Below the pieces are notes generated by a model that ran no database searches, was not told where the DNA came from, and saw only the letters and a program-made list of their open reading frames with translations. Made by a program: the position numbers and the translations under genes. From the IMG/VR virus record IMGVR_UViG_3300037311_000293: a DNA stretch of 64,000 bases; one strand, given 5' to 3'. Source of the DNA: a virus. This document shows, one piece after another, positions 27,221-60,603 of this stretch. The number at the start of each line of letters is the position of its first letter. Within the stretch, counting starts at the first letter, position 1.

Positions 27221-29377
27221 TCAGAACGTACGGCCGACGCCTGCATATCCCGGAGGGGCCAGGGGCGTCTCGTGGTGGTGTTGGAGCATGTTGCCTACGG
27301 TTTGGATCCCTTTGTAGGCACCATAGAGCCCGAGACCCCCGACTCCGATCACTCCGGCCTTCGCCAGGTTCCCTGGGGTGACGAGTAGCTTCTTGGCCGC
27401 CACTCCCGCTGCACCCGTTGCGCCAGGTGCGTTGGTCGGCGCCGGAACTCCCGCTGCGGCCGGTGCTGTCGTCGCGGCCACAGGAGCCATCTTGGCCTTC
27501 TGAGCCTTGTGGGCCTGGAGACGGTCCCCCAAAGACGGAGCCGGCGCCTGGGCGTTCTGTGCCGCCCTCTGGGCGCGCACGACGTCGCGCTGTGCGAGTT
27601 GCTGGCCCACGGTACCCGTGGTGACCTCGCCGCGTGCGATGGCGCGGTTCCGCATCGCCTTCTCGCTGGCCCGGCTCGCCGAGGCGTTCGCGACTTGTGT
27701 CGATTGCCCTTGAAGGCCGGCTCGGAACTGGGCCTTTCGAGCCGCCGAAGAACCGGCACGGAGGTCTCCGATGTTGTGGCCGAAACCCTTTACCGCACGG
27801 GTGCCTTCCTCGACGAAGTCACGACCGAGCTGTCGGGCGCCCTGACCCATGTGCTTTGCCGTCTGCACGGCTTTGCCGACGACACCTCTGGCAACTCGGC
27901 CCGCCATGTTGGCGAGCACGTTGGAGATCTTCTCTTGTTCCTCGGTCGTCATGTACTCCCAATCGGGGTACAGCAACTGCGCGATCTTCTCGAGCTGCGC
28001 CTTCTTGGTACGATCGTCGATCGCCTTGGCCGCGCGATGGGTCACCCCGGGAGCGACCATGGCGAGCCCGGCGATCTCTCTACCGTGGCTCTTGCCGAAC
28101 TTGCTGTCGGTCCCGAGGCCCTTCTCGAGCGCCAATCCGGCAGCACGGATCTTGGGGTTGCGGGCCTTGGACAACCGATGACCCGCTGCGCTCGCTGCAT
28201 ACGGCGCGGCAAGAACGGCGAGACCTGCGTCGTCGATGCGGTCTGAGATGTGCTGCGCCCGCTCGCTCAGGGCCGCTGCCTTGATTTCGGCCTCTGCGGC
28301 TTCGACATCTTCTGCGGTCTGCGTGGCGCGAGCAAACGCCGATGTACCCGGGAGCGCAGAGATGCCGGCGTGGTCCTCCCCGAGAACCGGACGCGAGCGC
28401 GTCAGCTCTTCGCCCTTCGAGGCTTTGGCCATGTTGAGCTCGGCGGTGAGGCGGGCTGCCTTCTCCATCTTGTCGAGCTTGGTGTAGTAGTCCGGGCGTT
28501 CGCGAAGGTGATCGATCGCGATCTGCTTTGCGATGCTGGGCTTGTCGGTGTGTTCCTTCTCCACGGCGATTCCCTTTCTGACCTGCGAACCGGGTAGGCC
28601 GCGAGCAGAGTCGTGAGGTGTCGTCAGATCTTTCTTGCTGATGCCGGCGGCCTTCATCCGCTCTGCACGTCCAGCAAGACGAAGGCCTTCGTTGAGAGCC
28701 CCGAGCTGAGCCACGCGTTTCGGTGACGTCTTGGCCTTTGCAGCAGCATCGAAGGCCGCGTCGTAGCGAGCTCGTGTCGCCTTGGCCGCTGAGCCAATAC
28801 CACTGGGGGCCTTGTCCAATAGGCGCTTGCGAATCCAATCGGCACTCACGGCTTCTTTGATGCCCACAGAGCTGTCGGCTGCGGCACCACCGAATACCGC
28901 ACCCTCGCGGGTGTGGAGGATCTTGGCAACCTTCTTGCCGTGGTTTGCTTTGTCCAGAACCTTGGACTTGAAGTCTTCCATCGCCATCTCCTTCATCGAT
29001 CCGAAGAAGCGAGGATCGTTGTATTGCTTCATGTACGCGGCTTTGGCTTCCTCAGCGGACTTGAAGCCCAGCATGACCTTCTGTTCATCGAAGAGCATCC
29101 AGTCCAGACCGTCTCCGGGGGACGAACCGCGGGGCTTCTTCATCTGATCGATGATGAAGACCTTCTCGCTGGTGGTATCCGGGCCGATGTAGACGTCGAC
29201 GTGATCACCATCGGTACCCTCGGTGTTCCAGATGTAGCCGTAGTGGTGATGCATCTTGGTCGATCCAGTCTCCTTGCCATGAGGATCGAACCATCGGCGC
29301 ACAGAACCCCGGGCGTTCTCGATGCTGATGTCGAGTCCCCACAGTTTCATGCGGCCCTGGAGCTTGTGAGCAGTCAT
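27221..29377 (-). CDS. polyvalent virion-type protein: inorganic-pyrophosphatase-like domain plus DUF5661-like domain
   Basis: GLDISIEN..GS.R...HYGYI..T.G.DGD.VDVYIGP...FDEQKVMLGF; GIAVEKEH...IAIDHL.E.PDYYTKL. Confidence 0.75.
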   Translation of the reverse strand: MTAHKLQGRMKLWGLDISIENARGSVRRWFDPHGKETGSTKMHHHYGYIWNTEGTDGDHVDVYIGPDTTSEKVFIIDQMKKPRGSSPGDGLDWMLFDEQKVMLGFKSAEEAKAAYMKQYNDPRFFGSMKEMAMEDFKSKVLDKANHGKKVAKILHTREGAVFGGAAADSSVGIKEAVSADWIRKRLLDKAPSGIGSAAKATRARYDAAFDAAAKAKTSPKRVAQLGALNEGLRLAGRAERMKAAGISKKDLTTPHDSARGLPGSQVRKGIAVEKEHTDKPSIAKQIAIDHLRERPDYYTKLDKMEKAARLTAELNMAKASKGEELTRSRPVLGEDHAGISALPGTSAFARATQTAEDVEAAEAEIKAAALSERAQHISDRIDDAGLAVLAAPYAASAAGHRLSKARNPKIRAAGLALEKGLGTDSKFGKSHGREIAGLAMVAPGVTHRAAKAIDDRTKKAQLEKIAQLLYPDWEYMTTEEQEKISNVLANMAGRVARGVVGKAVQTAKHMGQGARQLGRDFVEEGTRAVKGFGHNIGDLRAGSSAARKAQFRAGLQGQSTQVANASASRASEKAMRNRAIARGEVTTGTVGQQLAQRDVVRAQRAAQNAQAPAPSLGDRLQAHKAQKAKMAPVAATTAPAAAGVPAPTNAPGATGAAGVAAKKLLVTPGNLAKAGVIGVGGLGLYGAYKGIQTVGNMLQHHHETPLAPPGYAGVGRTF

Positions 29378-29437
29378 TGCGGGAGTATAGCGTGCCGATC
29401 TCCTGTAAGGGAACGACCAAAATACCCGAGAAAACGC

Positions 29438-33237: not shown

Positions 33238-36200
33238 TCAGACCACCAGCGTGATGCGGATGTAGTTCAGGGGGTAGAGCACCCCGACCGTGATGTCGAT
33301 CTCGAGCGTGTCCGGAGCCGTCGCCGACTGCCGGATGGCGTTGATGCGGAGCTCGGAGAGCACGCCCTGACGCACGAGGAACGCCGCCAGGCCGTCGAGC
33401 GTGATGCTGATGGCGTCCTGGACGTTGGTCGAGATGTTGAAGCGGCCGATGAAGTTGCGAAGACCGACGCGAAGGAACTTCGCCGTGAAGTCGAGCGCCC
33501 GCGTGATGCTGGCCTCGCGCTTCTCGATCGTCGACATGTCCGTCGTGAGCTGGTGCCGCGTCTTGACCGGCTGGCCCACGGCCTCTTGGTACAGGACCCA
33601 GAGACCACCACCACTCATCATCTTGAGCTGGAGCTCGGAGTACCGGTCGGTGGCTCCGATGACACCGCTGAAGCCCGCGATCGATTCCTCGGTCAGGGGC
33701 TGCTGCGGCGGTACCGCGCTCATCTTGCCGGCGAGCGCGGCGGAGAGGTAGTAGCCCGGGACGGCGGTCTCGAGCCCGTCGATGGTGGCCTTGGCCGTAT
33801 CCGGGGCCGTGGTGATGACGCGACGATCGAGGTAGCCGCGCGCGATGTCGGCGTACGCCGTGGCCTCATCCGTCCGATTCGCCAGAGCGCCACCGCGAAT
33901 CTTGATGGACACCGGGCGGTCGACGACAGCGGAGGTGAACACCGGGCTTCCTCCGCCATCGAGGAAGAAGTCGTTGCTCGCGCTCAGCGGACCGTCATTG
34001 ACGGTGACGAGGGCGCCGCTGACGCTCTCGACGAGGTACTTGTTGGTGTCGCCCTCGAACTCAAGGAAGACGCCATCGCTCTCGGTGTACGTCGGGCCCG
34101 GAAGGCCCAGCGCAGCCAGAAGGCTCTGGACGTTGGCGATCCCCGTGGCCACGACATTCGTCGGGGCTCCGGAGACGTTGGCGGTCGGCGCCGACGCCAC
34201 GAGGGTGTCGGACTTCCGCGTCGGCCGGCGCGGATTCAGGATGGCGATGCGCTCGAGGCCGTTCTCGGGCTTCGAGAGCTCGTCGACGTGGATCTGAGCG
34301 GCCTGGCCGACGTCGTTGCTGTGCGTCAGCGGTGCGATGGCGTAGACGTCCTTGGACTCCAGATACTCCAGCGCCCGGATGTAGGCCGCCAAGGCGCCCT
34401 CGGGCTCGGTGTCGCTGGTGGTGTCGACGCCGCAGCCCGTGACCTCGATGCCCGGGGCGTTGAGCAGGGCGAAGTACATCCCGAGCCCCAAGGGGTTCTG
34501 GGTGTCGAGCGGCCCGAGCTCGGCCTCGAGGTCCGTGGTGTTGCCGTAGCGAGCGAGGTTGAAGTCCGTACCCAGGGGACTGACGTCACGACGAAGCGCG
34601 GTGTACGCCAGGTACGTGCTGAGCGGCCCAGCCAGGGTGGCGTCACCGTTGGTCTGTCGGAACAACTCGTACTTGATCAGAACCGTCCCGCTCTCTTCAT
34701 CGACACGGAGCTCCGAAGCCGGACGCGTTGCCGAGGCCGCGTTGTTGTCGAGGCCCTTGGCCACGATCGACCACGTCGAGCCCGTGTAGCTCAGGAGCTG
34801 CTCGGCGCTGAGACGGAGACGATTGGTCGGGGTCACTGGGATTTCGGTAATGGTTCCGATGCGGAGACCGTTGACCCAGACTTCGTCACCGACCTGCGGA
34901 GAGAACGCCTTGCCGTAGATCACAGCGGTGTTCTCGAAGGGCTCACCCGCCCCGGTCAGGCCGAGGTTCGTGAGTAGCGTGGCGTCGGACGCCGTGGTGT
35001 CGATGCGAATCGAGCTCTCACGGCCGCCGAACGTCGACGGGCTGCGGAGCACGAGCTCGTTTGCGGCGTTGAGGCTGGCAACGCCGGCCCAGAGCCCGTT
35101 GATTGCCGACACGATGTTCGCAGCAGACGCGATGGTGTTGGGCATCACGAGCTGCTGGAACTGGTCGCCGTCGATGCTCATGCGGAGCACACGGCCGTGG
35201 ACATCGGCCGCGAAGGTCAGCAGCGAGAGGTTGGCGCCGCCCTGGGCCCGCGCACGCGACGGCTTGCCATCGGCGAAGGCGCCCACGGCGAGGCCGAGGT
35301 TGCCCGAAGTCGCCGTACCGCCAGTGCGCTCGAAGGACGAGGACACGCCGGTCAGCGTCGACGTCAGAACCAGGACGTTTCCGGAGCCCAGGCTTGCCAC
35401 CGTGGCACCGAAGGCCGTGTTGATCGCCGTCACGACATCGGCAGCCGAAGCCAGGCCAGCGAAGTTGACGGTGACCGGAGCGGCGCCGTTCATCGAGAAC
35501 ACCGCCGACGTCGTGTTGAGGGCGCCGAAGGTTCCGCTGAGATCGATGTTGCCGACGAGTCGCGCGGCGGCATCGGCGAAGACGCCACCACTGAAGTTGA
35601 GGTACGGCGACAGGTTGTCGCCATCACCGTCGTCCTGCACCGAGACCGCAGAGGTCGCGCCGTCGAGGAAGGCCTCGGTGCGCAGGACTTCGCGGATGTT
35701 GCCGGCACCATCGTTCAGGAAGACCCGCACGGTGTCGTAGTCGATGACAAGATCGTCGATGTTGCCCCGGGGGTCGGGGTAATCACCACCGGCCAGCCGA
35801 AGCTGGGTGTAGTTGGTGTAGCCCGTTGCACCGGTGTTGCGGTATCCCGTGGTGACGCCGAACGCCGTGAGGACATCGGAGGCGGTACCGCTCCCGATTT
35901 CGAGGCTGGCGTTCTCGCCAGTGGCCGTGGTTTGGATCACGACACGTTGCTGCGTGCCGCTGGTCTCGACGACGGCCTCGAGGCCCGGGATGGCCTCGGT
36001 GTTGATGGCGTCGGCCACTTCCGTTGCCGTCAGGTCCGGTCCCGTGGGGAACGTCACGGTCCGCGCCGCGCCGTTGTTGACCGCGACCTCGAGGGCGTCG
36101 GTTCCGATGCCGGTGTACTCGAAGGGGCTGCTGACCCATGCGAAGGGGATGCGCGCCGGGAGGGAGACCCGGGCGTCGCTGTTCAGGCTGCCGTCGTCTT

Positions 36201-36327
36201 GTACGGCCTCGATCACTTGGTTCGCAGGACCCACGATACAAGCCGGAAGGGTCGGAACCAGAGTCGTCGGGCTGACGGTCTGGAACTCCTGAATGACCTG
36301 GACGCTGGGCCTCTCGATGGTAGCCAT
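33238..36327 (-). CDS. contractile tail sheath protein with inserted beta domains
   Basis: N-terminal RPSVQVIQEF...CIVGP; C-terminal SITRALDF...IDITVGVLYPLNYIRITL. Confidence 0.88.
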   Translation of the reverse strand: MATIERPSVQVIQEFQTVSPTTLVPTLPACIVGPANQVIEAVQDDGSLNSDARVSLPARIPFAWVSSPFEYTGIGTDALEVAVNNGAARTVTFPTGPDLTATEVADAINTEAIPGLEAVVETSGTQQRVVIQTTATGENASLEIGSGTASDVLTAFGVTTGYRNTGATGYTNYTQLRLAGGDYPDPRGNIDDLVIDYDTVRVFLNDGAGNIREVLRTEAFLDGATSAVSVQDDGDGDNLSPYLNFSGGVFADAAARLVGNIDLSGTFGALNTTSAVFSMNGAAPVTVNFAGLASAADVVTAINTAFGATVASLGSGNVLVLTSTLTGVSSSFERTGGTATSGNLGLAVGAFADGKPSRARAQGGANLSLLTFAADVHGRVLRMSIDGDQFQQLVMPNTIASAANIVSAINGLWAGVASLNAANELVLRSPSTFGGRESSIRIDTTASDATLLTNLGLTGAGEPFENTAVIYGKAFSPQVGDEVWVNGLRIGTITEIPVTPTNRLRLSAEQLLSYTGSTWSIVAKGLDNNAASATRPASELRVDEESGTVLIKYELFRQTNGDATLAGPLSTYLAYTALRRDVSPLGTDFNLARYGNTTDLEAELGPLDTQNPLGLGMYFALLNAPGIEVTGCGVDTTSDTEPEGALAAYIRALEYLESKDVYAIAPLTHSNDVGQAAQIHVDELSKPENGLERIAILNPRRPTRKSDTLVASAPTANVSGAPTNVVATGIANVQSLLAALGLPGPTYTESDGVFLEFEGDTNKYLVESVSGALVTVNDGPLSASNDFFLDGGGSPVFTSAVVDRPVSIKIRGGALANRTDEATAYADIARGYLDRRVITTAPDTAKATIDGLETAVPGYYLSAALAGKMSAVPPQQPLTEESIAGFSGVIGATDRYSELQLKMMSGGGLWVLYQEAVGQPVKTRHQLTTDMSTIEKREASITRALDFTAKFLRVGLRNFIGRFNISTNVQDAISITLDGLAAFLVRQGVLSELRINAIRQSATAPDTLEIDITVGVLYPLNYIRITLVV

Positions 36328-37968: not shown

Positions 37969-38867
37969 TCCTCCGGGGCGTTACGGGGGTAGGTGGGGTA
38001 GTTGGCGAAGATGTCGGGGGTCTTCTCGTCGATGGCGGTGTTCAGATCTGTGGGGTTCGTGAACATCCGCGGGGGACTGGGTTGGATGTCCTTGAGCGCT
38101 TCATCGAGTCGAAGCGGCAAACGATACTCGATATCGGTATCTGTGATCTGCCGCATCACGAGCTCTTGCTTGATGGGCGCACGAAGCCGCTCAGACTGCG
38201 TGACCTGCGTGATGCGCCAGCGCTTGTTCTCGGCCTCGACCAGCAGATCCCCTGGAACGATGTTGGGGTAGAACGATGTCCGCCCAGACGTCATGACAGT
38301 CTGTTCGATCTGCTGTGCGTGGTTCTGCTGAGCCTTGGCCGGCGGGTCGATCTGCACCCAGATCTCGATGGGGTTGTGGTAGCCGCGAAGGAAGCCGGTG
38401 TCGTAGCAGCTCAGGCAGTTCGCTCGAGTCCGCTTGTGCGAAGTGGTGTCCCAGCAAGACGGACAACGAGGCCCAAACGTCCGCGCCTTGAACAACCAGC
38501 ACAGACGCCCAGTCGCCTGGGTGAACAAGACGAGCTCGTGTCGCCGGATGTAGTTGGCGATCAGGTCGGGCTCGGCTTGCCGTGTGACAGGGCCGTAGTC
38601 GTGGATCTCAGACGAGGCCTTGTGTGTGACACGCAGCTTGTACCAGATCTGACGAAACTTGTCGCCAGCAGGCATCCTGGAATCCACGAAGATGTAGCGG
38701 TCCTCGAACGTGCCAGTGATGGGATCGAACGGTCCTTCAGGAGACTCCGAGCGCAAAACCTGGAAAGTGTAGTCCAACGCGTCATCCGAGGAGTCAGTCT
38801 CCCAGGTGACTTCGTTGCGATCTACATCCAGGCTTCGCACCCGGAGATTCTGAATCCCGAGGATCAT
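37965..38867 (-). CDS. neck/head-closure-like protein with Zn-binding Cys cluster
   Basis: N-terminal FnIII-like segment; RCPSCWD...CLSCYDTGF..GY; PGDLLVE. Confidence 0.6.
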   Translation of the reverse strand: MILGIQNLRVRSLDVDRNEVTWETDSSDDALDYTFQVLRSESPEGPFDPITGTFEDRYIFVDSRMPAGDKFRQIWYKLRVTHKASSEIHDYGPVTRQAEPDLIANYIRRHELVLFTQATGRLCWLFKARTFGPRCPSCWDTTSHKRTRANCLSCYDTGFLRGYHNPIEIWVQIDPPAKAQQNHAQQIEQTVMTSGRTSFYPNIVPGDLLVEAENKRWRITQVTQSERLRAPIKQELVMRQITDTDIEYRLPLRLDEALKDIQPSPPRMFTNPTDLNTAIDEKTPDIFANYPTYPRNAPEE

Positions 38868-47136: not shown

Positions 47137-48204
47137 TCAACCCTCCAGGTAGCCGTTCTCCTGAAGGAGCTCCTCGGCGCGGGCGTACACCGCGGCGTAG
47201 TAGTCGTCGCCCGCGAACTCAGAGAACTCCGAGAACTCGGTCTGTTCGGCTGCGAGCTTGGTGGGCTCGACGATCCCGTTCTCGACGAGGATGTGGTTCG
47301 CGAACGCGACGGCATCTTGCTCGAAGGCCTCGTCGAACGACTGCTTCTTCCGCATCGCTGCCGCTCCGGCGCCCGCACCAGCGGTGGCCAGGGCCGCGCC
47401 ACCCAGCGCCGCGCGCCCCGTGCGCCGCGACTTCGCCGCATCCTCGAGGGCGTTACCCCCAGCAGCCATGCGCTTCTTGGCGCCTTCGGCTCCCCCACGC
47501 AGCTTGTAGCCGACGCGGGTGCTCACGGCGTGCTCCTTCTCCCGCACGGCACCCGCTGCGCCGCTTGCCGCGCTGCGTGCCTTGCTGGCGGCACCGCGGA
47601 CCTTGTCGGCCGCGCCGCTTGCCGCCCCACGGACCTTGCCGATCGCGCCACGAACGGCGTCCGTGGCGGCCGCCATGCGGGACGCTTCCTTCGTCGCTTC
47701 GTCCTCGCCGTCGCCGCCCTCGAGCTCGGCGAGCTTCTCGACGAAGCCCTCCGCCATCGCGCGACCGATCTCTCGGGCATCCGCGATCTTCTCCTCGGCG
47801 GCGATCTTCTGCTCGAAGTACGAGGGGTCGCTCATGTTCTGGGCGAGCTCCGCGAAGAGCTGGTGGTAGTCCTCACGGCTGAGCTCGTTGAGGTCGATGC
47901 CCTCGGCCTGGGCGATCTTGCCCAGCTCGACGGCCACATCGGCGTTGGTGATCTCGTTCGGGATCTGCGTCTCGTCGCTCATGGTCTGTTCCTTCTGGGG
48001 CTCCTGATGGGCGCTTGCGGTCTTCTCCGGAGGGAGCAACTCCGAAAGTAGACTCGCCACGTCTTCGTCGCTGAGGTCGTCGAGCTCGATGCCCTCTTGT
48101 TCAGCGATCTTCTGAAGGACGTGGCTCGCGTTCGCAAGATCGATGTCCAGGTCCTCGGAAGAGTCTTCCGTGTCCTGCTCGAAGATGTCGGTGACGCGTT
48201 CCAT
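47137..48204 (-). CDS. scaffold/internal head protein
   Basis: Two repeated acidic KIA..EGI.L..LS.ED units, 8 K-x-A motifs, Gly/Ala helix. Confidence 0.65.
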   Translation of the reverse strand: MERVTDIFEQDTEDSSEDLDIDLANASHVLQKIAEQEGIELDDLSDEDVASLLSELLPPEKTASAHQEPQKEQTMSDETQIPNEITNADVAVELGKIAQAEGIDLNELSREDYHQLFAELAQNMSDPSYFEQKIAAEEKIADAREIGRAMAEGFVEKLAELEGGDGEDEATKEASRMAAATDAVRGAIGKVRGAASGAADKVRGAASKARSAASGAAGAVREKEHAVSTRVGYKLRGGAEGAKKRMAAGGNALEDAAKSRRTGRAALGGAALATAGAGAGAAAMRKKQSFDEAFEQDAVAFANHILVENGIVEPTKLAAEQTEFSEFSEFAGDDYYAAVYARAEELLQENGYLEG

Positions 48205-48252: not shown

Positions 48253-49965
48253 CTAGAAGGACTTCAGTGCACCCCGCGCCGCCGAAACGAGAGAGGTCGC
48301 AGCCTGACGAAGACCGCCGGCATTGTCCACAGCCATCGCTGCACGAAGAACCGCTCCGATCGTTGCCATCGAAGTGAAAGTCGGATTCTCGGCGACGAAC
48401 TGTGCCATGGCCCCTAGCTGCTCACCCTCTTCGTTCCTTCGACGAAGGTGCGATGAAACCAAATGTATCACGGGCGCTAGACCGAGGAGAAGCGCACTCA
48501 GGCCGATCCCTTTCAGGTCACGCGGAACCGAGAGCAGCGAAGCCGCCTTGGGCATCAGATTTTCAGCGTTCTCGAGTACGCTGATCCTATAGCCATTGTA
48601 CGCCGCCGCGATCTTCTCCAAACGGATGTAGTTGGGTTCCGAAGATCCGAGTTTGGGCTCGTCGGACGACAGCCGGGCATTCAGATACGGCGCATACGCC
48701 GAACGCTCCGGCACCAGCGGTACAAGGGCGCTTGCCAACTTGGCGTCGAACAACACGGGGTCGACGGCATAGCTGTCGTCGATGCCGCCTGTGGTATCGA
48801 ACACCGCATTCATCGAAGCCAGTGCTTGCTTCTCGGCAGCAGGAAGAACGATGGCCTGGAACTCCCGTGGAGTCGGGATGATGCCCAGCCCAGCAAGTAC
48901 GGTCAGCAGCGTGCGGGGCTCGGTACCTGCATCGACGATCGCGGACAGCGTCTCAGAAGCATCCGGAGCTGACTTCGCGTCGACCTCAACGGCCTGCGCG
49001 ATGCCATCTGGGATCTCCTTTTCCATCGACGACAGCTTCATCGACGACATCAAGGTATCGAGGATCTTGTCGATTCGACGTGTACCAGGAGCCGGTGCGG
49101 GGAGCTCGCTACCCGCCATGAACCACATGACGCGGGCGGTACGGTCGGCGCCGACCCAGACGAAGCTGATGTCAAAGAACCGCGGGAAGTCGTTGTAGAC
49201 GAACACCTTGCGGCCGTCGGGATAGATCTTCCCCGGCTCATTCCTCATGTGCTCGCAGTAGTCGACGCGCGTTACTGCGAGACCGCGGATCTTGGTGTGA
49301 AACCGATGGTAGGCCAGGATGGCAACACCGGGAGTGCGGTGTTTCTTGAGGTCGAAGAGCTTCCAAGCCTTCCGAATCGCATCCCAATCGGTGCAGATCG
49401 AGCACAAGTCGAAGGGCACTCGGCAACCCATCGAGACGTCGACGCGTTCACCCGCGGCGATTCGACTCAGGATGGATGTGTGGCCCTTCTTGGCGGCCTC
49501 TTCGTTGAACACGCGCTCGACGAGCTCGATGCGCTTCATCGTGGGGTTCAGCGCGACGTAGATGACGTCGCCGAAGCCGAGCTGCTGAGGATCAGTGTTC
49601 TTGTGATGGGCGTAGACCGTCGCGCCGTAGTACGTAGGGTAGCCGTAAGGCCAGTCCTTCCCCTGCATTTTGTCGGTCTCGTAATCCTGCCCAAAGGATT
49701 CTGGGGCGTTGAGGAGACCGTTGAAGTCGAGCGGCGCGTTGTACCCGTACCAGTCTCGGTTCGAGTTCGATCCGTAGAACTCGGAGTACCCCATCGCGTT
49801 TACGAGGGTGTAGGTGTACCGGGGATCAGGTTTCAACGAGTCGATGAAGCGCTGGACGGAGGGCACCAGGGGACTCGCCGTCTTCACCTGTTCACCAGGC
49901 GTGATGACGCGTACCAGGGGCTCTCCGTCAGGCTCACCTTGGAGATATGCGCGCTTGATCAGCAT
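48253..49965 (-). CDS. prohead (capsid maturation) protease
   Basis: VYAHH, DVSMGCRVPFDLCSIC, YCEHM, FFDISFV..ADRTA; start MLIKRAY. Confidence 0.75.
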   Translation of the reverse strand: MLIKRAYLQGEPDGEPLVRVITPGEQVKTASPLVPSVQRFIDSLKPDPRYTYTLVNAMGYSEFYGSNSNRDWYGYNAPLDFNGLLNAPESFGQDYETDKMQGKDWPYGYPTYYGATVYAHHKNTDPQQLGFGDVIYVALNPTMKRIELVERVFNEEAAKKGHTSILSRIAAGERVDVSMGCRVPFDLCSICTDWDAIRKAWKLFDLKKHRTPGVAILAYHRFHTKIRGLAVTRVDYCEHMRNEPGKIYPDGRKVFVYNDFPRFFDISFVWVGADRTARVMWFMAGSELPAPAPGTRRIDKILDTLMSSMKLSSMEKEIPDGIAQAVEVDAKSAPDASETLSAIVDAGTEPRTLLTVLAGLGIIPTPREFQAIVLPAAEKQALASMNAVFDTTGGIDDSYAVDPVLFDAKLASALVPLVPERSAYAPYLNARLSSDEPKLGSSEPNYIRLEKIAAAYNGYRISVLENAENLMPKAASLLSVPRDLKGIGLSALLLGLAPVIHLVSSHLRRRNEEGEQLGAMAQFVAENPTFTSMATIGAVLRAAMAVDNAGGLRQAATSLVSAARGALKSF

Positions 49966-50667: not shown

Positions 50668-50949
50668 TCACGTGTAGAGAAGGCGGTACTTCGCCTCGTC
50701 GTACTTCTGCTTGGCCTTCCGGCCGCCCAAGTAGGTACCACCAGCCAGCGCGGCGTACCCCGCCACACGACCGGCCTTCTCGTTGGTCCCGAGGCCGCGG
50801 GCCAGCCCGGCACCGGCCTCGCCGCTGCCCTTGGCCACCCGACGAAGGAAGGCGCCCGCGGCTTCTGCCTTTTCGGCCGCGGACGCCGTCTTCAAGAGAC
50901 CGATCGAAAGCGCGAGGGTCTTCGTCTTCATCGCTCTTCCTCCAGCCAC
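50668..50949 (-). CDS. small putative internal head protein
   Basis: KTAS; VAGYAALAGGTYLGG followed by a basic tail. Confidence 0.6.
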   Translation of the reverse strand: MAGGRAMKTKTLALSIGLLKTASAAEKAEAAGAFLRRVAKGSGEAGAGLARGLGTNEKAGRVAGYAALAGGTYLGGRKAKQKYDEAKYRLLYT

Positions 50950-51740
50950 GCCGTGACATCGGCGAGGTTCTTCTCCAGATCGCGGAGCGCGAGCTGGTGG
51001 GCCTGGTAGGTCTTGGCCTCCTTCACGAGTTCCGCGAAAGCAGACACGACCGGGGCGGCAGGATTGATGATCCGAGACGCCACCTTCTGATTGCTGGCCT
51101 TCATGAAAGGCGAGAACCGACGAAACGCGACCTTCGCGGATTCGGCGTCGACGAGACTCCAGGCCTCAAGAAGCTCGGAGGGCGAAGTACCCTGTGAAGT
51201 CGCAGAGACCACGGCCTCCGCCAGCTTCTCCACGGCCATCGACATCCGCTCCTTGGCAGCCTCAGAGCTCTGTACGAGCTCGTCGTGTCCCGCAGCCAGC
51301 TTGCTGCGGAGCGACATGACGTCGCCCAACACCCCGGCACGGGTACGCTCGGATTCAGTGAAGGACGCCGCAGAAGACTTCGAGAAGTCCGGCGGCATGG
51401 AGTATTCGAGGGCGTCGATGGTGACCTCCCGAGGCCGTGCCTCTTTGTGCAGAGCCTGTAGCACTTCCACGGGGTCTGCGGGTCCGCCGTCGATGTGGAC
51501 GTGGCGAAGATGCCCCGAGGTCGAGGCGTACTTGCGCTGGAACGCTTCGATGTTGGCGAACTCCACGACGCGACGAACCTGCTCGGAGTTCAGTTTCTCG
51601 TGACCCACCGTTTGGACGACGGCGTCGGTGAGGCTGATTCCTGCGGTGTCTGCGAGGTGCGCGGCCTGCTTTCCCAGGTGCTCGAAGAGCCCGGGGTCGA
51701 CTGACCGCCCGCGTACGTGGAGCGTGTCGTGGCGCGTCAT
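50928..51740 (-). CDS. head-module protein
   Basis: LNSEQVRRVVEFAN; KQAA, KLAA, KVAS motifs. Confidence 0.65.
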   Translation of the reverse strand: MTRHDTLHVRGRSVDPGLFEHLGKQAAHLADTAGISLTDAVVQTVGHEKLNSEQVRRVVEFANIEAFQRKYASTSGHLRHVHIDGGPADPVEVLQALHKEARPREVTIDALEYSMPPDFSKSSAASFTESERTRAGVLGDVMSLRSKLAAGHDELVQSSEAAKERMSMAVEKLAEAVVSATSQGTSPSELLEAWSLVDAESAKVAFRRFSPFMKASNQKVASRIINPAAPVVSAFAELVKEAKTYQAHQLALRDLEKNLADVTAWLEEER

Positions 51741-54409: not shown

Positions 54410-54433
54410 GTGCAAAAACCAGTCCGAAATCAC

Positions 54434-54440: not shown

Positions 54441-54476
54441 TAGATGAAGAGGAACTATCCCTTCACAACACAAACA

Positions 54477-54504
54477 CCCTGCATCAGTGATGCGGGTTTT
54501 TTTT
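54477..54504 (+). terminator. intrinsic terminator (possible attenuator)
   Basis: CCCTGCATCA/TGATGCGGG stem plus T8, located between the promoter motif and the next RBS. Confidence 0.7.
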
Positions 54505-54519
54505 CTGGAGGAGAGAACC

Positions 54520-55206: not shown

Positions 55207-57114
55207 TTACATCGCGTAGTCCTGCGAAATCTTTGCTTCGATCTCTTCCATCGCGAAGTCTTCACTCCGACTTCGAGCCGCGTCATCCGTACTGTGCTCC
55301 TGAATCGGCGCGATGATGTCAGGCCGCCGGTGCTGCAAGAAGCTCGCGAGCATACAGTAGATGATCGAATGGAAGGTGTCGTCCGGAATACCCCGTGGTT
55401 TGTCGTATTTGATCATCTTCATCGAATCCGAGTACTCGGAATGGATCGACAAGATGTCATCGGCAAACGGGGTCTTGTAGACGTCCCAGTCGGGTAGGCG
55501 GATCTTCTTGGTCTTCAGTGCCATGAAGATGTCCGCCATGATGGGGGTGCGGAACACGATGTAGCGGTTGAGCGCGCTCTTGTACGTCACCTTCCGAGGG
55601 GATCGTGCCGCGTACTGGAACTGGTGGATACGCTTCGGGCCGAACACCGAGGTCAGCTTCTTGTTGGGGTGGAAGCCCATACCGTAGTCGACGCCAACGA
55701 ACTTCAAGCGGAACTTCCGGATGAGCCGCATGATCTCTTCCATCTGCGGATCAGGATCTACAAGCTGACCATCGAAGCGCTTGGAATACAAGATCTGAAA
55801 GCTCGAGTCGTTTCGTACGTAACCGCCGACCGTGAGCACGGTGTAGGCGTGCTCACCAGTACCCCAGTCGATGCCGCCAAAGAGCTCGTGGCTCTGCGCC
55901 AACGTAGCCACGGCATCTTCGTCCATGGTGTAGGTACTGGTCTCGTCGCAGGACATGACGAGTTCGGCGCGAGTGATCGGTTTGGTGCCGGCGTCGAAGC
56001 TCAGCGCCATGACCTCGTTCATGAACTGCGCCGTGGGGTAGTTCTCCATGGCGTGGATGATCGAGCGCCACTTCGAATACGGATCTGGAGAGTCCATGTC
56101 GGGCTTCCAGAACCACGGCACCATGAGGCGGCAGATCCTATACCCCTCGAACTCTGCCCCTGGATTCATCTCAACCCAACGCGCCGCCGGATGCTCGGGG
56201 TTGATGGGGTGACCACAGCGGTCGCAGATCGGTCCTTTCTTGCCGATGTTCTTCGGACCCAACACGTTCCAGTGCCAGGTACCCGGCTGGTTCGGCGTAC
56301 CGTGCCTGTCGCAGGGGATGCACCACTCGGCTTGGGTCGACTGCTTTGACCAAATGCTCTCGATCGTGTTGTCGAAGGTCTTCGGGGTCCCGCTGTACAT
56401 GTAGAGCGGGTTCTTGAAGTGCGACGCCGTCTCCGCGATGACGGGCATGACGTCCTGCAAAAGATCCTGAACCTCATCGGCGAACACTGCGTTGTTCGAC
56501 AAGCCGCGAATACGGTCAGCGCTCAAGAAGGCATAGCGAAGGTAGATCTTCGACCGATTCAGGAACTCCTTCTCCAACAGGTTGTAAGTGAGGCTCTTGT
56601 GCGTAAGGGCCTTCACCATCGGCGACAGATCAATGATGTCGTCGATACGCGCAGTCGAAAACACCTTCGTCTGCATAGCGGACGGCGTGACGAACAACGC
56701 CGTGTACATCGGATTCATGCCGACCAAGCTCAGCAGCCGGTTGCCGATCGTCGTCGACTTCTCGGTCTGACGACTCGTCATGAACAAGATCTTGCGCGCC
56801 TGTGTGTCGTAGACCCGGCGAAGATACTCGCGCTCCGAGAACTCGATGGGCTTGACTGCACCACGATCTCCGTCTTTGATACGGACGAAATGCTCAACCC
56901 ATTGCGAGCTCTTGAGCTTGATCTTGGTTGTACGACGCCGAACCTTCTTCTTCGTGAACGGATCGTCGACCCGAGTGTTCGGCTCTCGACTGGCGTAAGC
57001 AGAGGGATCGATGTCTGAATCCGAAAAGATGGGCCTGCTCGGCATGACTGGCTTCTTCCTCGGCCTTCTAGGTTCTGCGGTCTCGGAGTCCCGTAGCGGC
57101 AGCGACGGTGCCAC
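55207..57114 (-). CDS. terL: terminase large subunit (GpA-type ATPase plus nuclease)
   Basis: TSRQTEKST Walker A, IRG...FADEVQD Walker B, SGTPKT, Zn-binding Cys pairs, GGIDWG; start uncertain. Confidence 0.9.
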   Translation of the reverse strand: MAPSLPLRDSETAEPRRPRKKPVMPSRPIFSDSDIDPSAYASREPNTRVDDPFTKKKVRRRTTKIKLKSSQWVEHFVRIKDGDRGAVKPIEFSEREYLRRVYDTQARKILFMTSRQTEKSTTIGNRLLSLVGMNPMYTALFVTPSAMQTKVFSTARIDDIIDLSPMVKALTHKSLTYNLLEKEFLNRSKIYLRYAFLSADRIRGLSNNAVFADEVQDLLQDVMPVIAETASHFKNPLYMYSGTPKTFDNTIESIWSKQSTQAEWCIPCDRHGTPNQPGTWHWNVLGPKNIGKKGPICDRCGHPINPEHPAARWVEMNPGAEFEGYRICRLMVPWFWKPDMDSPDPYSKWRSIIHAMENYPTAQFMNEVMALSFDAGTKPITRAELVMSCDETSTYTMDEDAVATLAQSHELFGGIDWGTGEHAYTVLTVGGYVRNDSSFQILYSKRFDGQLVDPDPQMEEIMRLIRKFRLKFVGVDYGMGFHPNKKLTSVFGPKRIHQFQYAARSPRKVTYKSALNRYIVFRTPIMADIFMALKTKKIRLPDWDVYKTPFADDILSIHSEYSDSMKMIKYDKPRGIPDDTFHSIIYCMLASFLQHRRPDIIAPIQEHSTDDAARSRSEDFAMEEIEAKISQDYAM

Positions 57115-57614: not shown

Positions 57615-58582
57615 GCGATCTCCTCGTCAGGTTCCTTGTCAGCAGGAACTTCAGCGTAATCGGTTGCTGGAAGATCCACCACATTACCCGGCCTAAGTGC
57701 CGGGAGGTCTTTGACCGTGTCGATCTTTGTGGCGTCGTACGTCGTCTCGATACGACGGAACTCGTCGATCAGCTCAGACGTACTGCCACGATGGCGCGTG
57801 AGCTCCTCATCGGCGCCGCGAACCATCTGAAAAGCCATGAAGGCTGCTTGTGTCCTCTGCAAGGACGGTCGCGTACTAAGCAACGCGTGCCCCATGAACA
57901 TGTTGAAGCCTTGATCTCGAATGGCGGTGTACATCGCCACCGAGCTCAACGAGTCGGCACTACGGTCTGTAAGGGCAAGAACCAATGCCGCCCCAGCCGC
58001 AGAGCGCGGGGCATTGAGCGCCGCGAGGTAGTCAGAGTTGAGCTCAGCCGTTTCCTTGGGATCTTCGCCGTCGGCTCCGAGCCAGGACACCGCGATGCGT
58101 CGCCACTCCGGGATCGAGAGCGCCCCGGGATCCCAGTAGTAATGGGCAAAGGCGCGGACAACGCGGACGTTCATCGAGCGCTCTGGAAGACCGAAGCGTC
58201 CAGCGATTCGCGTCGCAATGGCCGCAGGGGTCAGCGGTCCCAACAGAAGGGCTTGAAGCACGCGACGAATCATGGGCTCGAACAGAAGGTCGGTCGCAGC
58301 CCCCACGAACGGGTCGTTGGTCCACATGCCGTGGATGCCCATGCGCTCCAGGAACATCGAAGTCGCCTTCTCCATCGGCTTCTTCAACGGATCGAACTCC
58401 GGAGGCAGGAGTAGCTTGCGACGATAGCGGATGAGTTCTTCCGTGAACTTGATGAGCTCCTTCTCTTTTCGAGGCAGAGGCAAAGACAGATCATCGAGAT
58501 GCTCGATGATCTGTGCAGTGCTGTAGGCCCTCTTCGTGAGGAGGTAGTTGATGTAATGCCTACTGGGGTGCCGAAGCATCAC
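57611..58582 (-). CDS. hypothetical protein (terminase small subunit candidate by position only)
   Basis: Helical 323 aa; IATRIAGRFG helix-turn segment; position near terL. Confidence 0.55.
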   Translation of the reverse strand: MMLRHPSRHYINYLLTKRAYSTAQIIEHLDDLSLPLPRKEKELIKFTEELIRYRRKLLLPPEFDPLKKPMEKATSMFLERMGIHGMWTNDPFVGAATDLLFEPMIRRVLQALLLGPLTPAAIATRIAGRFGLPERSMNVRVVRAFAHYYWDPGALSIPEWRRIAVSWLGADGEDPKETAELNSDYLAALNAPRSAAGAALVLALTDRSADSLSSVAMYTAIRDQGFNMFMGHALLSTRPSLQRTQAAFMAFQMVRGADEELTRHRGSTSELIDEFRRIETTYDATKIDTVKDLPALRPGNVVDLPATDYAEVPADKEPDEEIA

Positions 58583-60603
58583 GTCCCCGAGAGATCGCGA
58601 AGCGAGAGCGCCTTGAGCCCCTGGATGACGTCGTCGAGTCCTCGAGCCGCGCGCGCCGCCGCGGCTTCCGGTACCTCACTGAGGCCCACACGAGAACCGA
58701 GAACGAGCTCGCACAGCATGGAAAGGCACTTCTCGAAGTACGGGATCCGGCTGATGTAGAGATGAACGTTCTCGGAGTTGATCAGCCCGAGGCTGAGGAC
58801 TGCGTCCACCGTCATCGACGACGGCATCGCCGCGGCTTCCTTCACGAGCTCTCGACGCAGACTCATGACCGCGGCGCTGTTCTCTGCTGCGATCTTCCGG
58901 GTACCGCTCGCGATGTCCCGGGCGAGCTTGACGTCGTTGAACCCCGTCACCGCTACGGGGTTGTCCATGGAAGCCGCGGCGATCTTGTTGGCGTGTGCTG
59001 CGTCGGCTCCGGCGAGGCAGAGGACGAACACCGCATCGTCGTAGCTCAGCGACTTCGACGTCACCGAGGCCAGCTTCGGAAGCCCGCGGAGCTCGAGCTG
59101 GAACGTTTCGCCATCCCATCCACCCAGGCGAATCGAGGCCCGACTCACCTCGGCCGCCGTCTTCGTAGCGGCTTCCGGTTCCTCGACCAAAGCAACGAGA
59201 CTTTCGTTCTCGAGCGGCAAGAACTTCGCCGATGCCGGGAGAAGGAACTCACCCTTCAGCACCTGCATGACCTTGAGGCCCGGAACCATGCGGACGCGGG
59301 TGTGCTCTCCGGTCAGCGAACGGCACAACCAGGAATCACCACCACCGAGCTCGGCCTCACCTCCCTGCACCAGAAGCGGCACAGTGGCTTCCACGCCGCC
59401 CTGGCCTGCCATGTAGAAGCACCCGGTGCCCTTGGGAGGCGCCGAAGGCAGGTCGACACCCTCGGCGACCCGGGCACCCGCAATCTGGCCCTGTACGACC
59501 GCTGCGGCGCCGTTGGTGAACACCGCCATGGGTACGCGGGAGCCATCGAGATCGACGAGGTTGGGAAGTACCCAGCCCGTCATCTCCTTGCCATGAACGG
59601 TCTTGACCTTGTAGATGCCTGGGGTATCGACGCGTACCCACTTCGAGCTGTCGGTGTCGATCTTCATCGCACCACCGGCAACGGTCACGGTACCTTCGGT
59701 GTCGACACGACGCGTCACGTCGTCACCAGCGAACTTGAGGAAGCGAGCTCGCGACATCAGAACAGGAGCCGTGTCGTGCAGCGCTGAGCGCGACGCCGCC
59801 TTGACCCAGTAGGATCCATCGGCGTAGCCGCACTGGACGACGTCTGCGGAGGCCGCAGACAGCGCGGTGTTGAAGACCTCATCGCTTCGGTGCGTCGCAG
59901 TCTTCTCGGCAGCGGAGAGCAGCAGCAACGCGTGAGTCATCACGGGATTGACGCCCTCGAGGATTGCCGGCTCCTTCTCCGCGATCTTGGCGAGGCCCGT
60001 GAGGTCGGGTCGCAGGAGCGTCGGAGCCACTGCCGAGAGCATGGGGTAGTCCGCAGCACTGAGCTTCATGCCGGGACCCTGGATCATCGTAACAGCGCCC
60101 TGGGTTCCACCGCCCATGCCCTGCGAGATGCCGGCACCGAAGTCATTGTCACTCCGCCCCGGCGGATAGAACATGTTGTAGAGGTTCGTGTCGCCCCAGT
60201 CGTCGGTGATCATCTCGAACGTCTCAGGGCGGAACAACGCCTCACGAAGACGCACGGCGTTAAGCGGGGCCATTTTGCCCGAGCGAGTCATCAGGATGTC
60301 GAGCGGGGACAACTCGTGGTTCTTGATGACGATGGGGATCACGACACGGCGGGCGTTGGCTCCAGGACGAGCCACCGACAAGGCGCTATCGGTCGAGTTC
60401 TCGACGATGATGACGCCGTAGCCGTACCCCTGTTCTTCGTCGACCTTCATCATCGCGACGCGGGGTGTGTAGTCCGATGCCTCCGGCAGCGTACGGAACA
60501 GCTCGACGAGAATCTGGCGCGGCCAGGCCTCGGGGTCCTCATCGAGGGTGACGGCTGCCGTCTTCTCGAACTTCAGGGAAGGCTTCTGGAGGAAAAGATC
60601 CAT
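58579..60603 (-). CDS. large head-module protein of unknown function
   Basis: About 674 aa, at least 10 K-x-A/S motifs, start MDLFLQK. Confidence 0.7.
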   Translation of the reverse strand: MDLFLQKPSLKFEKTAAVTLDEDPEAWPRQILVELFRTLPEASDYTPRVAMMKVDEEQGYGYGVIIVENSTDSALSVARPGANARRVVIPIVIKNHELSPLDILMTRSGKMAPLNAVRLREALFRPETFEMITDDWGDTNLYNMFYPPGRSDNDFGAGISQGMGGGTQGAVTMIQGPGMKLSAADYPMLSAVAPTLLRPDLTGLAKIAEKEPAILEGVNPVMTHALLLLSAAEKTATHRSDEVFNTALSAASADVVQCGYADGSYWVKAASRSALHDTAPVLMSRARFLKFAGDDVTRRVDTEGTVTVAGGAMKIDTDSSKWVRVDTPGIYKVKTVHGKEMTGWVLPNLVDLDGSRVPMAVFTNGAAAVVQGQIAGARVAEGVDLPSAPPKGTGCFYMAGQGGVEATVPLLVQGGEAELGGGDSWLCRSLTGEHTRVRMVPGLKVMQVLKGEFLLPASAKFLPLENESLVALVEEPEAATKTAAEVSRASIRLGGWDGETFQLELRGLPKLASVTSKSLSYDDAVFVLCLAGADAAHANKIAAASMDNPVAVTGFNDVKLARDIASGTRKIAAENSAAVMSLRRELVKEAAAMPSSMTVDAVLSLGLINSENVHLYISRIPYFEKCLSMLCELVLGSRVGLSEVPEAAAARAARGLDDVIQGLKALSLRDLSGT

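What the first reader, a model, noticed from the sequence alone, without database searches (positions are those of the whole stretch)
27221..60603. K-x-A motif confined to head-module proteins: candidate protease cleavage code
Seen: in 45349-45741, 7 of 8 lysines are K-x-A (KVAS, KLAS, KRAS, KLAR, KVAA, KLAS, KRAS). 47137-48204 has 8 and 58579-60603 at least 10. The protease itself carries KTAS, KLAS, KIAA and KAAS. The MCP has exactly one, KIAA near residue 20, where a propeptide would end. The 1029-aa sheath has none among 15 lysines. Established: T4 gp21 and phiKZ gp175 cleave many head proteins at short Glu-ending motifs. Inference: this protease uses a different, Lys-anchored rule (K-x-A/S), and the motif marks which proteins are packaged inside the head.
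Basis: partly seen in the sequence, partly recalled or inferred. Interest (0 to 1): 0.82.

Follow-up and report, generated by a model that had tools for sequence, protein, structure and literature searches.

The report
Lys-x-Ala head-protease cleavage code
A 177-kb uncultured phage and its relatives, including the cultured Salmonella phage Arash, load their head-assembly proteins with the signal Lys-x-Ala-(Ser/Ala). It most likely marks where the phage's own T4/herpes-type capsid protease cuts, a rule unlike the cut-after-glutamate rule of studied phage proteases, but no cut has been measured.

Summary
In the eight genes 45349-51740, a block chosen by position, K-x-A-S occurs 17 times against 1.6 expected. 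58579-60612 and one gene beyond the window are also enriched, and the rest of the genome is at expectation.

A-x-K, K-A, K-xx-A and R-x-A are not enriched, so composition and helix periodicity do not explain it. The same proteins carry the motif in about 70 related uncultured loci, in Salmonella phage Arash and in Vibrio phage D69. K-x-A was the top residue pair in 39 of 56 loci.

The gene 48253-49965 matches no Pfam, PHROG or NCBIfam model. Its N-domain folds like T4 gp21 (Z 9.0) and herpesvirus proteases, and it has an invariant His and Ser.

The same scan on T4 core proteins returns the known I/L-x-E rule. This supports reading K-x-A as a cleavage code, probably cut after Ala, as in assemblin (x-A|S) and SPN3US (A-x-E|S).

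Cleavage itself is inferred, not shown. The claim that the motif marks packaged proteins is not supported, because the RNA polymerase lacks it. K-x-S is not enriched.

Earlier notes of this scan report the same Lys-x-Ala code in other genomes. No paper on it was found.

The parts
48253..49965 (-). Head maturation protease (residues about 29-300) fused to a helical C-terminal domain (about 320-570). It carries 7 K-x-A.
   Evidence: The N-domain AF2 model has pLDDT 91. VIA-align puts T4 gp21 (5jbl) first at Z 9.0, rmsd 3.2 over 136 aa, then VZV protease 7.0, HCMV 5.2 and KSHV 4.0. The top Foldseek rows are mostly gp21 and herpes proteases, with weak E-values. H121 and S178 are invariant in 58 sequences. 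There is no Pfam, PHROG or NCBIfam hit. The start at MLIKRA is supported by homologues.
49873..49884 (-). K28-T-A-S31, the candidate self-cleavage site that would remove an N-terminal propeptide of about 30 aa.
   Evidence: K-x-A is in the same alignment column in 90% of 61 orthologues. It lies 10-45 aa upstream of the NAMG anchor in 85 of 89 representatives from 50%-identity clusters. It sits in a segment with pLDDT below 50 (residues 18-31).
49027..49038 (-). K310-L-S-S in the linker after the protease domain, a candidate release site. The family consensus here is K-x-A-S-M-E-K-E-I-P.
   Evidence: K310 is nearly invariant. The linker 290-319 has pLDDT below 50. The family consensus shows two to three K-x-A in this linker.
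47137..48204 (-). Acidic 355-aa protein with 8 K-x-A, a candidate scaffold or core protein.
   Evidence: 8 observed, 3.7 expected. Orthologues have K-x-A-[AS] at 4.2 times expectation. Five sites are conserved in at least 73% of 11 orthologues.
45768..46907 (-). Charged 379-aa protein with 11 K-x-A, a candidate scaffold or core protein.
   Evidence: 11 observed, 5.3 expected. Orthologues are at 3.4 times expectation. Cutting at every site would give pieces of 8-85 aa.
45349..45741 (-). 130-aa protein in which 7 of 8 Lys lie in K-x-A. It is the densest substrate candidate.
   Evidence: 7 observed, 1.26 expected, p=0.001. Orthologues are at 12.6 times expectation. Cutting at every site would give pieces of 8-29 aa.
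50928..51740 (-). 270-aa protein with 8 K-x-A. It has a weak similarity to Arash gp220.
   Evidence: 8 observed, 1.9 expected. 41 orthologues are at 9.9 times expectation. K24 and K219 are conserved as K-x-A in 94% and 92%. blastp to gp220 gives E 5e-4, and gp220 itself has 10 K-x-A against 3.0 expected.
50668..50931 (-). 87-aa protein with KTAS at residue 14, a possible propeptide site.
   Evidence: This is a single site and is not significant on its own.
58579..60612 (-). 677-aa head-module protein of unknown function with 12 K-x-A. It is not the portal.
   Evidence: 12 observed, 3.7 expected. 36 orthologues are at 9.95 times expectation. K591 is conserved as K-x-A in 97% and K271 in 74%. 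The portal is a different gene outside the window. There is no family or Atlas match.
44710..44721 (-). K20-I-A-A in the N-terminus of the major capsid protein (gene 43675-44778), a candidate propeptide boundary.
   Evidence: K-x-A is present at this position in 26 of 27 aligned capsid proteins, and the next residue is A, E or Q. The capsid-protein identity rests on PHROG 2522 at 1.8e-8 and an NCBIfam HK97-fold model at 1.3e-10.
38864..41877 (-). Two further possible substrates, 38864-40204 and 40207-41877, with a few K-x-A-[AS] sites including N-terminal ones (K39, K33).
   Evidence: 38864 has K-x-A-S 3 observed, 0.53 expected (p 0.02). 40207 has K-x-A-[AS] 4 observed, 1.26 expected (p 0.03). 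Orthologues of 40207 are at 2.6 times expectation. This is weak.
33238..36327 (-). Tail sheath, a negative control.
   Evidence: 0 K-x-A among 15 Lys, 1.84 expected. PHROG tail sheath hit at 2.6e-17.
55207..57045 (-). Large terminase, a negative control.
   Evidence: 1 K-x-A, 2.65 expected. 68 orthologues have K-x-A-[AS] 7 observed, 16.2 expected. Pfam GpA_ATPase hit at 9.6e-13.
61757..64000 (-). Single-chain RNA polymerase, which runs off the window. It lacks the motif.
   Evidence: 0 K-x-A-[AS] and 8 K-x-A against 14.9 expected, among 168 Lys. It is homologous to Arash gp206 and gp216.

Best explanation
K-x-A, in fuller form [L/M/F]-[E/V/T]-K-[T/V/L/I/Q]-A-[S>A,G,E]-A, is the recognition code of the phage's own head-maturation protease.

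Shown:
- The N-domain of 48253-49965 has the T4 gp21 / herpes assemblin fold.
- His121 and Ser178 are invariant.
- The motif is concentrated in, and conserved across, the neighbouring head-assembly proteins.

Inferred:
- Inside the prohead the enzyme frees itself at K28-T-A|S31 and in the linker near residue 310.
- It chops the scaffold-like proteins 45349, 45768 and 47137 into small peptides of roughly 8-85 aa (one stretch of 47137 stays 144 aa) that can leave the shell.
- It trims short N-terminal leaders from other head proteins and perhaps about 22 aa from the capsid protein.
- The cut most likely falls after Ala, with Lys at P3, Ala at P1 and Ser/Ala at P1'.
For: 1. Enrichment is confined to the head block. 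K-x-A-S is 17/1.58 and the rest of the genome is at expectation.
2. The signal is register- and direction-specific. K-x-A is 64/22.7 (z 8.7), while A-x-K, K-A, K-xx-A and R-x-A are at expectation. All four Ala codons are used, so it is not a DNA word.
3. It is conserved where protease identity falls to 28-30%. Orthologues show 3-13 times expectation, against 0.2-0.4 times for terminase, topoisomerase and 57611. A profile by gene position over 69 loci gives 4-6 times next to the protease gene and 0.8 times elsewhere. K-x-A is the top pair in 39 of 56 loci.
4. Cultured relatives agree: Arash gp220, gp223 and gp225 and Vibrio phage D69.
5. Motif lysines are more conserved than the other lysines in the same proteins (0.43-0.68 against 0.00-0.31).
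6. Protease identity rests on fold matches. hhalign pairs gp21 Ser140 with Ser178 and places His85 within 3 residues of His120/121, although that alignment is not significant. Inteins sit 3 and 10 residues after Ser178 in homologues. The phage G homologue gp19 is called a head maturation protease in PMC12484599.
7. Positive control: the same scan on T4 gp67, gp68, gp21 and gp22 ranks I-x-E and L-x-E first.
8. For the cut after Ala: information lies at positions -2 to +1 around K-x-A, and Pro, Val and Asp are avoided after Ala. This matches the P3-x-P1|S layout of SPN3US A-x-E|S (PMC10052503) and assemblin V-Q-A|S (PMC4498786).
Against: - No cleavage product has been observed for any member of this group. 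The Arash proteome paper gives only coverage figures, which are high (gp223 100%, gp220 96%), and no peptide lists.
- Several window motifs lie in confidently modelled helices of the protease C-domain (K409, K451, K473) and may not be accessible.
- The capsid-protein site is followed by A, E or Q rather than S, A or G, and it could be conserved for structural reasons.
- The third catalytic residue is not identified.
- The hhalign match to gp21 is not significant (probability 0.12).
- The scissile bond is inferred only by analogy and from the shape of the logo.
Confidence: 0.62

Rival explanations
1. It is the protease's cleavage code, but the cut falls after Lys (P1 = Lys, with Ala at P2' and Ser at P3').
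For: From my own knowledge, not checked here: the HK97 prohead protease cuts its capsid protein after a Lys. Lys is the most fixed residue of the motif along with Ala.
Against: This would put most of the information on the prime side (an invariant P2' and a strong P3'), which is unusual for serine proteases. The characterised enzymes of this fold whose rule was checked here read P3-x-P1. The avoidance of Pro, Val and Asp directly after Ala fits a P1' position better.
Confidence: 0.12
2. K-x-A is a binding or targeting motif and is not cut. For example, it could be a repeated contact between core proteins and the inner capsid surface or the protease C-domain.
For: Some motifs sit in predicted helices. 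The capsid-protein N-terminal motif may be structural. Arash motif-rich proteins are detected with high coverage in the virion preparation.
Against: The most conserved site lies in a flexible leader directly before the catalytic domain in 85 of 89 family representatives, and more sites lie in the linker after it. That is the classic self-release layout. The residue avoidances around the site look like protease subsites. T4's proven cut sites leave the same statistical footprint. The Arash preparation also contains many non-structural enzymes, so precursors may be present.
Confidence: 0.15
3. The motif is read by some other enzyme, such as a different protease or a lysine-modifying enzyme, and not by the product of 48253-49965.
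For: There is no direct link between enzyme and motif. Many neighbouring genes have no known function.
Against: The motif travels with this protease gene across loci with only 28-30% identity, and it peaks in the genes flanking it. The protease itself carries the best conserved copies. No second protease was found in the block.
Confidence: 0.06
4. It is a by-product of Lys/Ala-rich helical composition or of chance.
For: The proteins are Ala-rich and largely helical.
Against: Composition-matched shuffles give p of 0.001 or less for several genes. The reverse and shifted pairs are at expectation. The block test gives p 1.5e-12. The enrichment recurs in relatives chosen by homology or by position, not by motif.
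Confidence: 0.02

Closest known systems
Bacteriophage T4 prohead protease gp21 (PDB 5jbl) with its substrates gp22, gp67, gp68, gp23 and the internal proteins
   Same: It is the best structural match (Z 9.0). The Ser and His positions correspond. The gene sits just upstream of scaffold-like genes and the capsid gene. The core proteins carry many copies of a P3-x-P1 type motif, and an unbiased scan detects this in both systems. Short N-terminal leaders ending in the motif are common: 15 of 29 module proteins against 45 of 185 elsewhere.
   Different: There is no detectable sequence-family membership (no Pfam, PHROG or NCBIfam hit). The motif is K-x-A rather than (L/I)-x-E, and [LI]-x-E is not enriched here (35/29.6). 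The protein has an extra 250-aa C-terminal domain. The portal gene is not adjacent.
Herpesvirus assemblin-scaffold precursor (pUL26, Ser-His-His protease; PMC4498786)
   Same: The fold matches (VZV Z 7.0, HCMV 5.2, KSHV 4.0). The protease is N-terminal to a helical domain in one chain, with candidate release sites in the linker. The small-residue junction Ala|Ser is shared (PrV sites YLQA-T and VQA-S).
   Different: P3 is Lys here, against Val/Leu in herpesviruses, and [VLI]-x-A is not enriched (66/82.8). There are many sites per substrate rather than one or two. The third catalytic residue is unknown. The C-domain has not been shown to be a scaffold.
Giant-phage prohead proteases phiKZ gp175 and SPN3US gp245 (PMC10052503)
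   Same: One protease processes many head proteins at a three-residue P3-x-P1 motif with Ser preferred at P1'. N-terminal propeptides are removed.
   Different: P1 is Glu there (A-x-E). [ASG]-x-E is at or below expectation here (58/70.4).
Bacillus phage G gp19, Salmonella phage Arash gp222, Vibrio phage D69 protein 0270
   Same: They are true sequence homologues of the protease domain (tblastn E 7e-8 to 6e-18). Arash and D69 show the same K-x-A enrichment in neighbouring genes. gp19 is annotated as a head maturation protease in PMC12484599.
   Different: None has a published cleavage rule. The phage G signal is weak: gp19 has 8 against 2.45 expected, and its capsid protein has R-V-A at the homologous place.

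Membership tests
Assemblin-fold prohead proteases (T4 gp21 type / herpes assemblin type) | Shared three-dimensional fold of the catalytic domain | tested here: met
   The model has pLDDT 91. VIA-align gives 5jbl Z 9.0, rmsd 3.2, 136 of 165 aa, and VZV protease Z 7.0. The next unrelated rows are at Z 5.4 or lower. The top Foldseek rows are mostly gp21 and herpes proteases, with weak E-values of 0.07-1.
Assemblin-fold prohead proteases (T4 gp21 type / herpes assemblin type) | Catalytic Ser and His at the equivalent positions | tested here: inconclusive
   H121 and S178 are invariant in 58 sequences, 57 residues apart against 55 in gp21. hhalign pairs S140 with S178 and H85 within 3 residues of H120/121, but at probability 0.12. 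No residue-level structural superposition was available. The third triad member was not assigned.
Assemblin-fold prohead proteases (T4 gp21 type / herpes assemblin type) | Match to a curated sequence model of a prohead protease family | tested here: not met
   There is no Pfam hit at E up to 0.1, no functional PHROG, no NCBIfam hit and no relevant PDB sequence hit. At sequence level it is a separate family with 2150 cluster representatives at E up to 1e-3.
Assemblin-fold prohead proteases (T4 gp21 type / herpes assemblin type) | Gene placed with the scaffold and major capsid genes | tested here: met
   The order on the minus strand is protease, three motif-rich charged proteins (with a 72-aa gene among them), a 158-aa protein, then the capsid protein. 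The order is the same in Arash, gp222 to gp226.
Assemblin-fold prohead proteases (T4 gp21 type / herpes assemblin type) | Proteolytic activity on head proteins | not testable with these tools
   This needs a biochemical assay or virion N-terminomics.
T4 / phiKZ-type Glu-P1 cleavage code | Head core proteins enriched in (L/I)-x-E or (A/S/G)-x-E | tested here: not met
   [LI]-x-E is 35/29.6 and [ASG]-x-E is 58/70.4 in the ten head proteins. The same scan does find I/L-x-E in T4.
Herpesvirus assemblin-scaffold fusion (pUL26) | Cleavage at (V/L/I)-x-A|S release and maturation sites | tested here: not met
   [VLI]-x-A is 66/82.8. The conserved sites have Lys at that position. Only the Ala-Ser junction is shared.
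Herpesvirus assemblin-scaffold fusion (pUL26) | Protease fused N-terminally to a scaffold domain | tested here: inconclusive
   A conserved helical C-domain (residues 320-570) follows a flexible linker that bears the motif. A scaffold role for it was not tested.

The most novel reading that the evidence does not exclude
A very large, unannotated family of capsid proteases has switched to Lys-P3/Ala-P1 specificity. The family has at least 2150 clusters at 50% identity and no Pfam model, and it includes Salmonella phage Arash, Vibrio phages and relatives of phage G. It would link the Glu-cutting phage enzymes with the Ala-cutting herpesvirus assemblins. If so, K-x-A-[S/A] density can be read straight from sequence to predict the scaffold or core proteins and the propeptides of thousands of uncultured large phages.
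Probability: 0.5. Interest if true: 0.72.

Novelty: new variant of a known kind. Interest (0 to 1): 0.62.

Why it matters
Every phage head protease of this fold whose cleavage rule was looked up here cuts after Glu (SPN3US in a paper read here; T4 and phiKZ from my own knowledge). A Lys-x-Ala rule would be a new specificity in the fold shared by tailed phages and herpesviruses. It would lie closer to the herpes Ala|Ser junction.

It would also give function to a protease family that current libraries leave unnamed, and to the orphan proteins around it in many uncultured genomes of 120-200 kb. It offers a sequence-only way to find scaffold or core proteins and mature N-termini.

The question is directly testable, because Arash and the Vibrio phages are in culture.

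Tried and rejected
- megablast of the block against the phage collection found nothing.
- Pfam, PHROG and NCBIfam gave no function for the protease or the motif-rich proteins.
- The full-length protease model was mediocre (pLDDT 70), and Foldseek on it against PDB found nothing significant. Folding the domain alone resolved this.
- A profile search against PDB sequences returned only one irrelevant hit.
- The ESM Atlas gave nothing usable for 58579-60612. I considered that this gene is the portal and rejected it: the portal is a different gene outside the window.
- The Arash paper and its supplements hold no peptide-level data, so the cleavage prediction could not be tested there.
- Literature searches for a Lys-x-Ala prohead-protease rule found nothing.
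- A DNA-level explanation was rejected, because all four Ala codons are used.
- Composition and helix periodicity were rejected.
- Depletion of K-x-A in the large structural proteins (11 against 24.1) is suggestive of avoidance. That set was chosen after the fact, so I do not lean on it.

Full report
**Setting.** I called 214 genes with a simple codon-bias model, giving 89% coding. Gene starts are therefore approximate. The start of the protease gene is confirmed by homologues.

- 45349-45741: 7 of 8 Lys lie in K-x-A.
- 47137-48204: 8.
- 58579-60612: 12.
- 48253-49965: 7, including KTAS, KLAS, KIAA and KAAS.
- The capsid protein has one, at residue 20.
- The sheath has none among 15 Lys.

Against 1000 composition-matched shuffles per gene, six window genes reach p of 0.02 or less. 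They are 45349, 45768, 47137, 48253, 50928 and 58579. One gene beyond the window end, 76727-78226 in window numbering, does too.

To avoid choosing genes by their motif, I tested the eight consecutive genes 45349-51740 as a block. These are the genes between the 44826-45302 gene, which lies next to the capsid gene, and the topoisomerase island.
- K-x-A-S: 17 observed, 1.58 expected (p 1.5e-12).
- K-x-A-[AS]: 24 observed, 4.5 expected.
- The other 204 genes of the genome: 210 K-x-A, 223 expected.

The gene 27221-29377, at the start of the stated range, is not enriched (10 observed, 10.05 expected).

**Is it a specific signal?** In the seven enriched proteins K-x-A is 64 against 22.7 expected (z 8.7). 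The pairs A-x-K, K-A, A-K, K-xx-A, K-xxx-A and R-x-A are all at expectation. The second strongest pair is K-xx-S (35 against 13.3). So the signal has a direction and a register, which composition or helical periodicity would not give.

K-x-S is at expectation and K-x-G is depleted. Motif alanines use all four codons in the usual proportions, so this is not a DNA word.

**Relatives.**
- The protease protein has more than 900 homologues in metagenomes, none named and none with a Pfam domain apart from inteins.
- Its catalytic domain alone finds 2150 representatives of 50%-identity clusters at E up to 1e-3.
- I fetched 80 IMG/VR loci with 10 kb on each side, called ORFs and assigned orthologues by blastp.

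K-x-A-[AS] relative to composition in the orthologues:

| Orthologue of | Observed / expected |
|---|---|
| 45349 | 12.6x |
| 58579 | 9.95x |
| 50928 | 9.9x |
| protease | 5.1x |
| 47137 | 4.2x |
| 45768 | 3.4x |
| terminase | 0.43x |
| topoisomerase | 0.36x |
| 57611 | 0.23x |

- A profile that uses only gene position in 69 distinct loci gives 4-6x for same-strand genes within -1.5 to +3 kb of the protease gene. There is a second peak 6-9 kb upstream. The terminase bins (0.8x) and opposite-strand genes (0.79x) are at about expectation.
- In an unbiased scan of all residue pairs at gaps 0-3, K-x-A ranks first in 39 of 56 loci and in the top three in 46. Some other winners, L-x-K and M-x-K, are the upstream part of the same motif.
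- Motif lysines are more conserved than other lysines of the same proteins. Some sites are nearly universal: protease K28 at 90%, 50928 K24 at 94% and K219 at 92%, 58579 K591 at 97%.
- A logo from 1345 instances reads [L/M/F]-[E/V/T]-K-[T/V/L/I/Q]-A-[S>A,E,G]-A. Gly, Asp and Ser are avoided between K and A. Val, Pro and Asp are avoided after Ala. K-x-A instances in control proteins show no preference for Ser after Ala.

**Cultured relatives.** tblastn finds only distant cultured relatives: Salmonella phage Arash, Vibrio phages D69, D181 and D148, and Bacillus phage G gp19.
- Arash: the genes around the protease homologue gp222 repeat the pattern. gp220 has 10 against 3.0, gp223 has 8 against 3.0 and gp225 has 7 against 1.8. 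gp222 has K-Q-A-A just before its catalytic domain, and the capsid protein has V-K-E-A-G at residue 27.
- Vibrio phage D69: a scan of nine genes chosen by position puts K-x-A first (50 against 20.7) and K-xx-S second. One protein has ten K-x-A, all followed by S or A.
- Phage G: the signal is weak.

**What is 48253-49965?** It matches no curated family.
- Fold. Residues 29-300, folded with 58 homologues, give a confident model (pLDDT 91). An exhaustive structural search puts the T4 capsid assembly protease gp21 first (Z 9.0, rmsd 3.2 over 136 of 165 residues). VZV protease follows at 7.0, with HCMV (5.2) and KSHV (4.0) proteases also listed. The top Foldseek rows are mostly the same two groups, with weak E-values.
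- Catalytic residues. His121 and Ser178 are invariant. A statistically insignificant hhalign alignment nevertheless pairs gp21 Ser140 with Ser178 and puts His85 within three residues of His120/121.
- Inteins. Homologues carry inteins at two separate points, 3 and 10 residues after Ser178. From my own knowledge, inteins tend to sit at functional cores.
- Literature. The phage G homologue gp19 is listed as a head maturation protease in PMC12484599.

I therefore accept it as a head protease of the gp21/assemblin fold that forms a sequence family of its own. The residues after about 320 form a conserved helical domain.

**From motif to mechanism.** Three observations tie the motif to this enzyme.
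- The best conserved copies are in the enzyme itself. One lies in a flexible leader just before the catalytic domain: 85 of 89 diverse representatives have it, with consensus F/L-E-K-T/V-A-S/A/G. Others lie in the low-confidence linker after the domain. That is the layout of self-release sites in herpes pUL26 (PMC4498786).
- The neighbouring charged, scaffold-like proteins carry so many copies that cutting them all would leave mostly small pieces: 8-29 aa for 45349, 8-85 aa for 45768, and 6-37 aa plus one 144-aa stretch for 47137. From my own knowledge, this is how T4 disposes of its core.
- As a positive control, the same blind scan on T4 gp67, gp68, gp21 and gp22 returns I-x-E and L-x-E as its top two pairs. 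From my own knowledge, that is the experimentally known gp21 rule. The known codes leave no footprint here.

**Which bond is cut?** This is inference. I favour the bond after Ala for three reasons.
- The information lies from two residues before Lys to one after Ala, a P5-P1' spread.
- The avoidance of Pro after Ala fits a P1' position.
- The two enzymes of this fold whose rule I checked in papers here read P3-x-P1 with Ser at P1': SPN3US A-x-E|S and pseudorabies V-Q-A|S.

A cut after Lys remains possible.

**Limits.**
- Nothing here shows a cut.
- The Arash proteome reports high coverage of the motif-rich proteins. That preparation also contains many non-structural enzymes, and no peptide lists are available.
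- Some motifs lie in predicted helices.
- The capsid-protein site is conserved as K-x-A in 26 of 27 sequences but is followed by A, E or Q. It may be structural.
- The idea that the motif marks packaged proteins does not fit two cases. The RNA polymerase has 0 K-x-A-[AS] among 168 Lys, and its Arash counterpart tops the virion proteome. The portal has 1 K-x-A.
- A milder version holds: K-x-A within the first 45 residues is more common in the head module (15 of 29) than elsewhere (45 of 185, p 0.004).

**Novelty.** I found no paper describing a Lys-x-Ala rule for a prohead protease. The papers on Arash and phage G say nothing on cleavage specificity. Earlier notes of this scan report the same code in other genomes. 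They are unchecked AI notes and I did not use them as evidence.

The kind of system is well known: one assemblin-fold protease processing many head proteins at a short motif. The specificity and the sequence family are new. I rate it a new variant of a known kind.

Noticed in passing
homologues P0007 and P0053 of window 48253-49965 (not in the window itself): Many homologues of the protease carry one to three inteins and reach lengths of 900-1700 aa. Two independent insertion points lie 3 and 10 residues after the invariant Ser178, at Cys181 and Cys188.
   Followed up: partly
window 52275-55140 (+ strand): A small plus-strand island with a topoisomerase II large subunit (PHROG 543, E 3.5e-162) interrupts the minus-strand head and packaging module, between the terminase and the protease block.
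   Followed up: no
window 42867-43601 (-): The 244-aa protein just downstream of the capsid gene has a C-terminal match to endonuclease VII and Arc-like repressor PHROGs (E 8e-5 and 3e-3). It may be a DNA-binding or homing-type gene inside the structural module.
   Followed up: no
window 27221-29377 (-): The N-terminal 140 residues match a domain found in minor head proteins, DarB-like proteins and endolysins (PHROGs, E down to 1e-28). The protein is Lys- and Ala-rich, but K-x-A is exactly at expectation (10 against 10.05).
   Followed up: partly
window 61757-64000 (runs on beyond the window): The 2077-aa single-chain RNA polymerase has 168 Lys but only 8 K-x-A (14.9 expected) and no K-x-A-[AS]. 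Together with the sheath, portal, terminase and capsid protein this gives 11 against 24.1, which may reflect avoidance of the cut site.
   Followed up: partly
L082 (Bacillus phage G) gp27, residues about 20-28: At the place where the capsid proteins of this group have K-x-A, phage G has R-V-A. This hints at an Arg variant of the same site in that lineage.
   Followed up: no
genome outside the window, 72284-78226 in window numbering: The portal (633 aa, 29% identical to Arash gp204) lies about 8 kb beyond the window end. A further motif-rich 499-aa protein (11 K-x-A against 3.8) lies four genes from it, so the head genes form at least two sub-modules.
   Followed up: partly
window 60615-61757 (-): There are weak PHROG matches to baseplate assembly and hub or tail-lysozyme proteins (E 4e-4 and 9e-4) for a gene lying between the RNA polymerase and a motif-rich head-module protein.
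   Followed up: no
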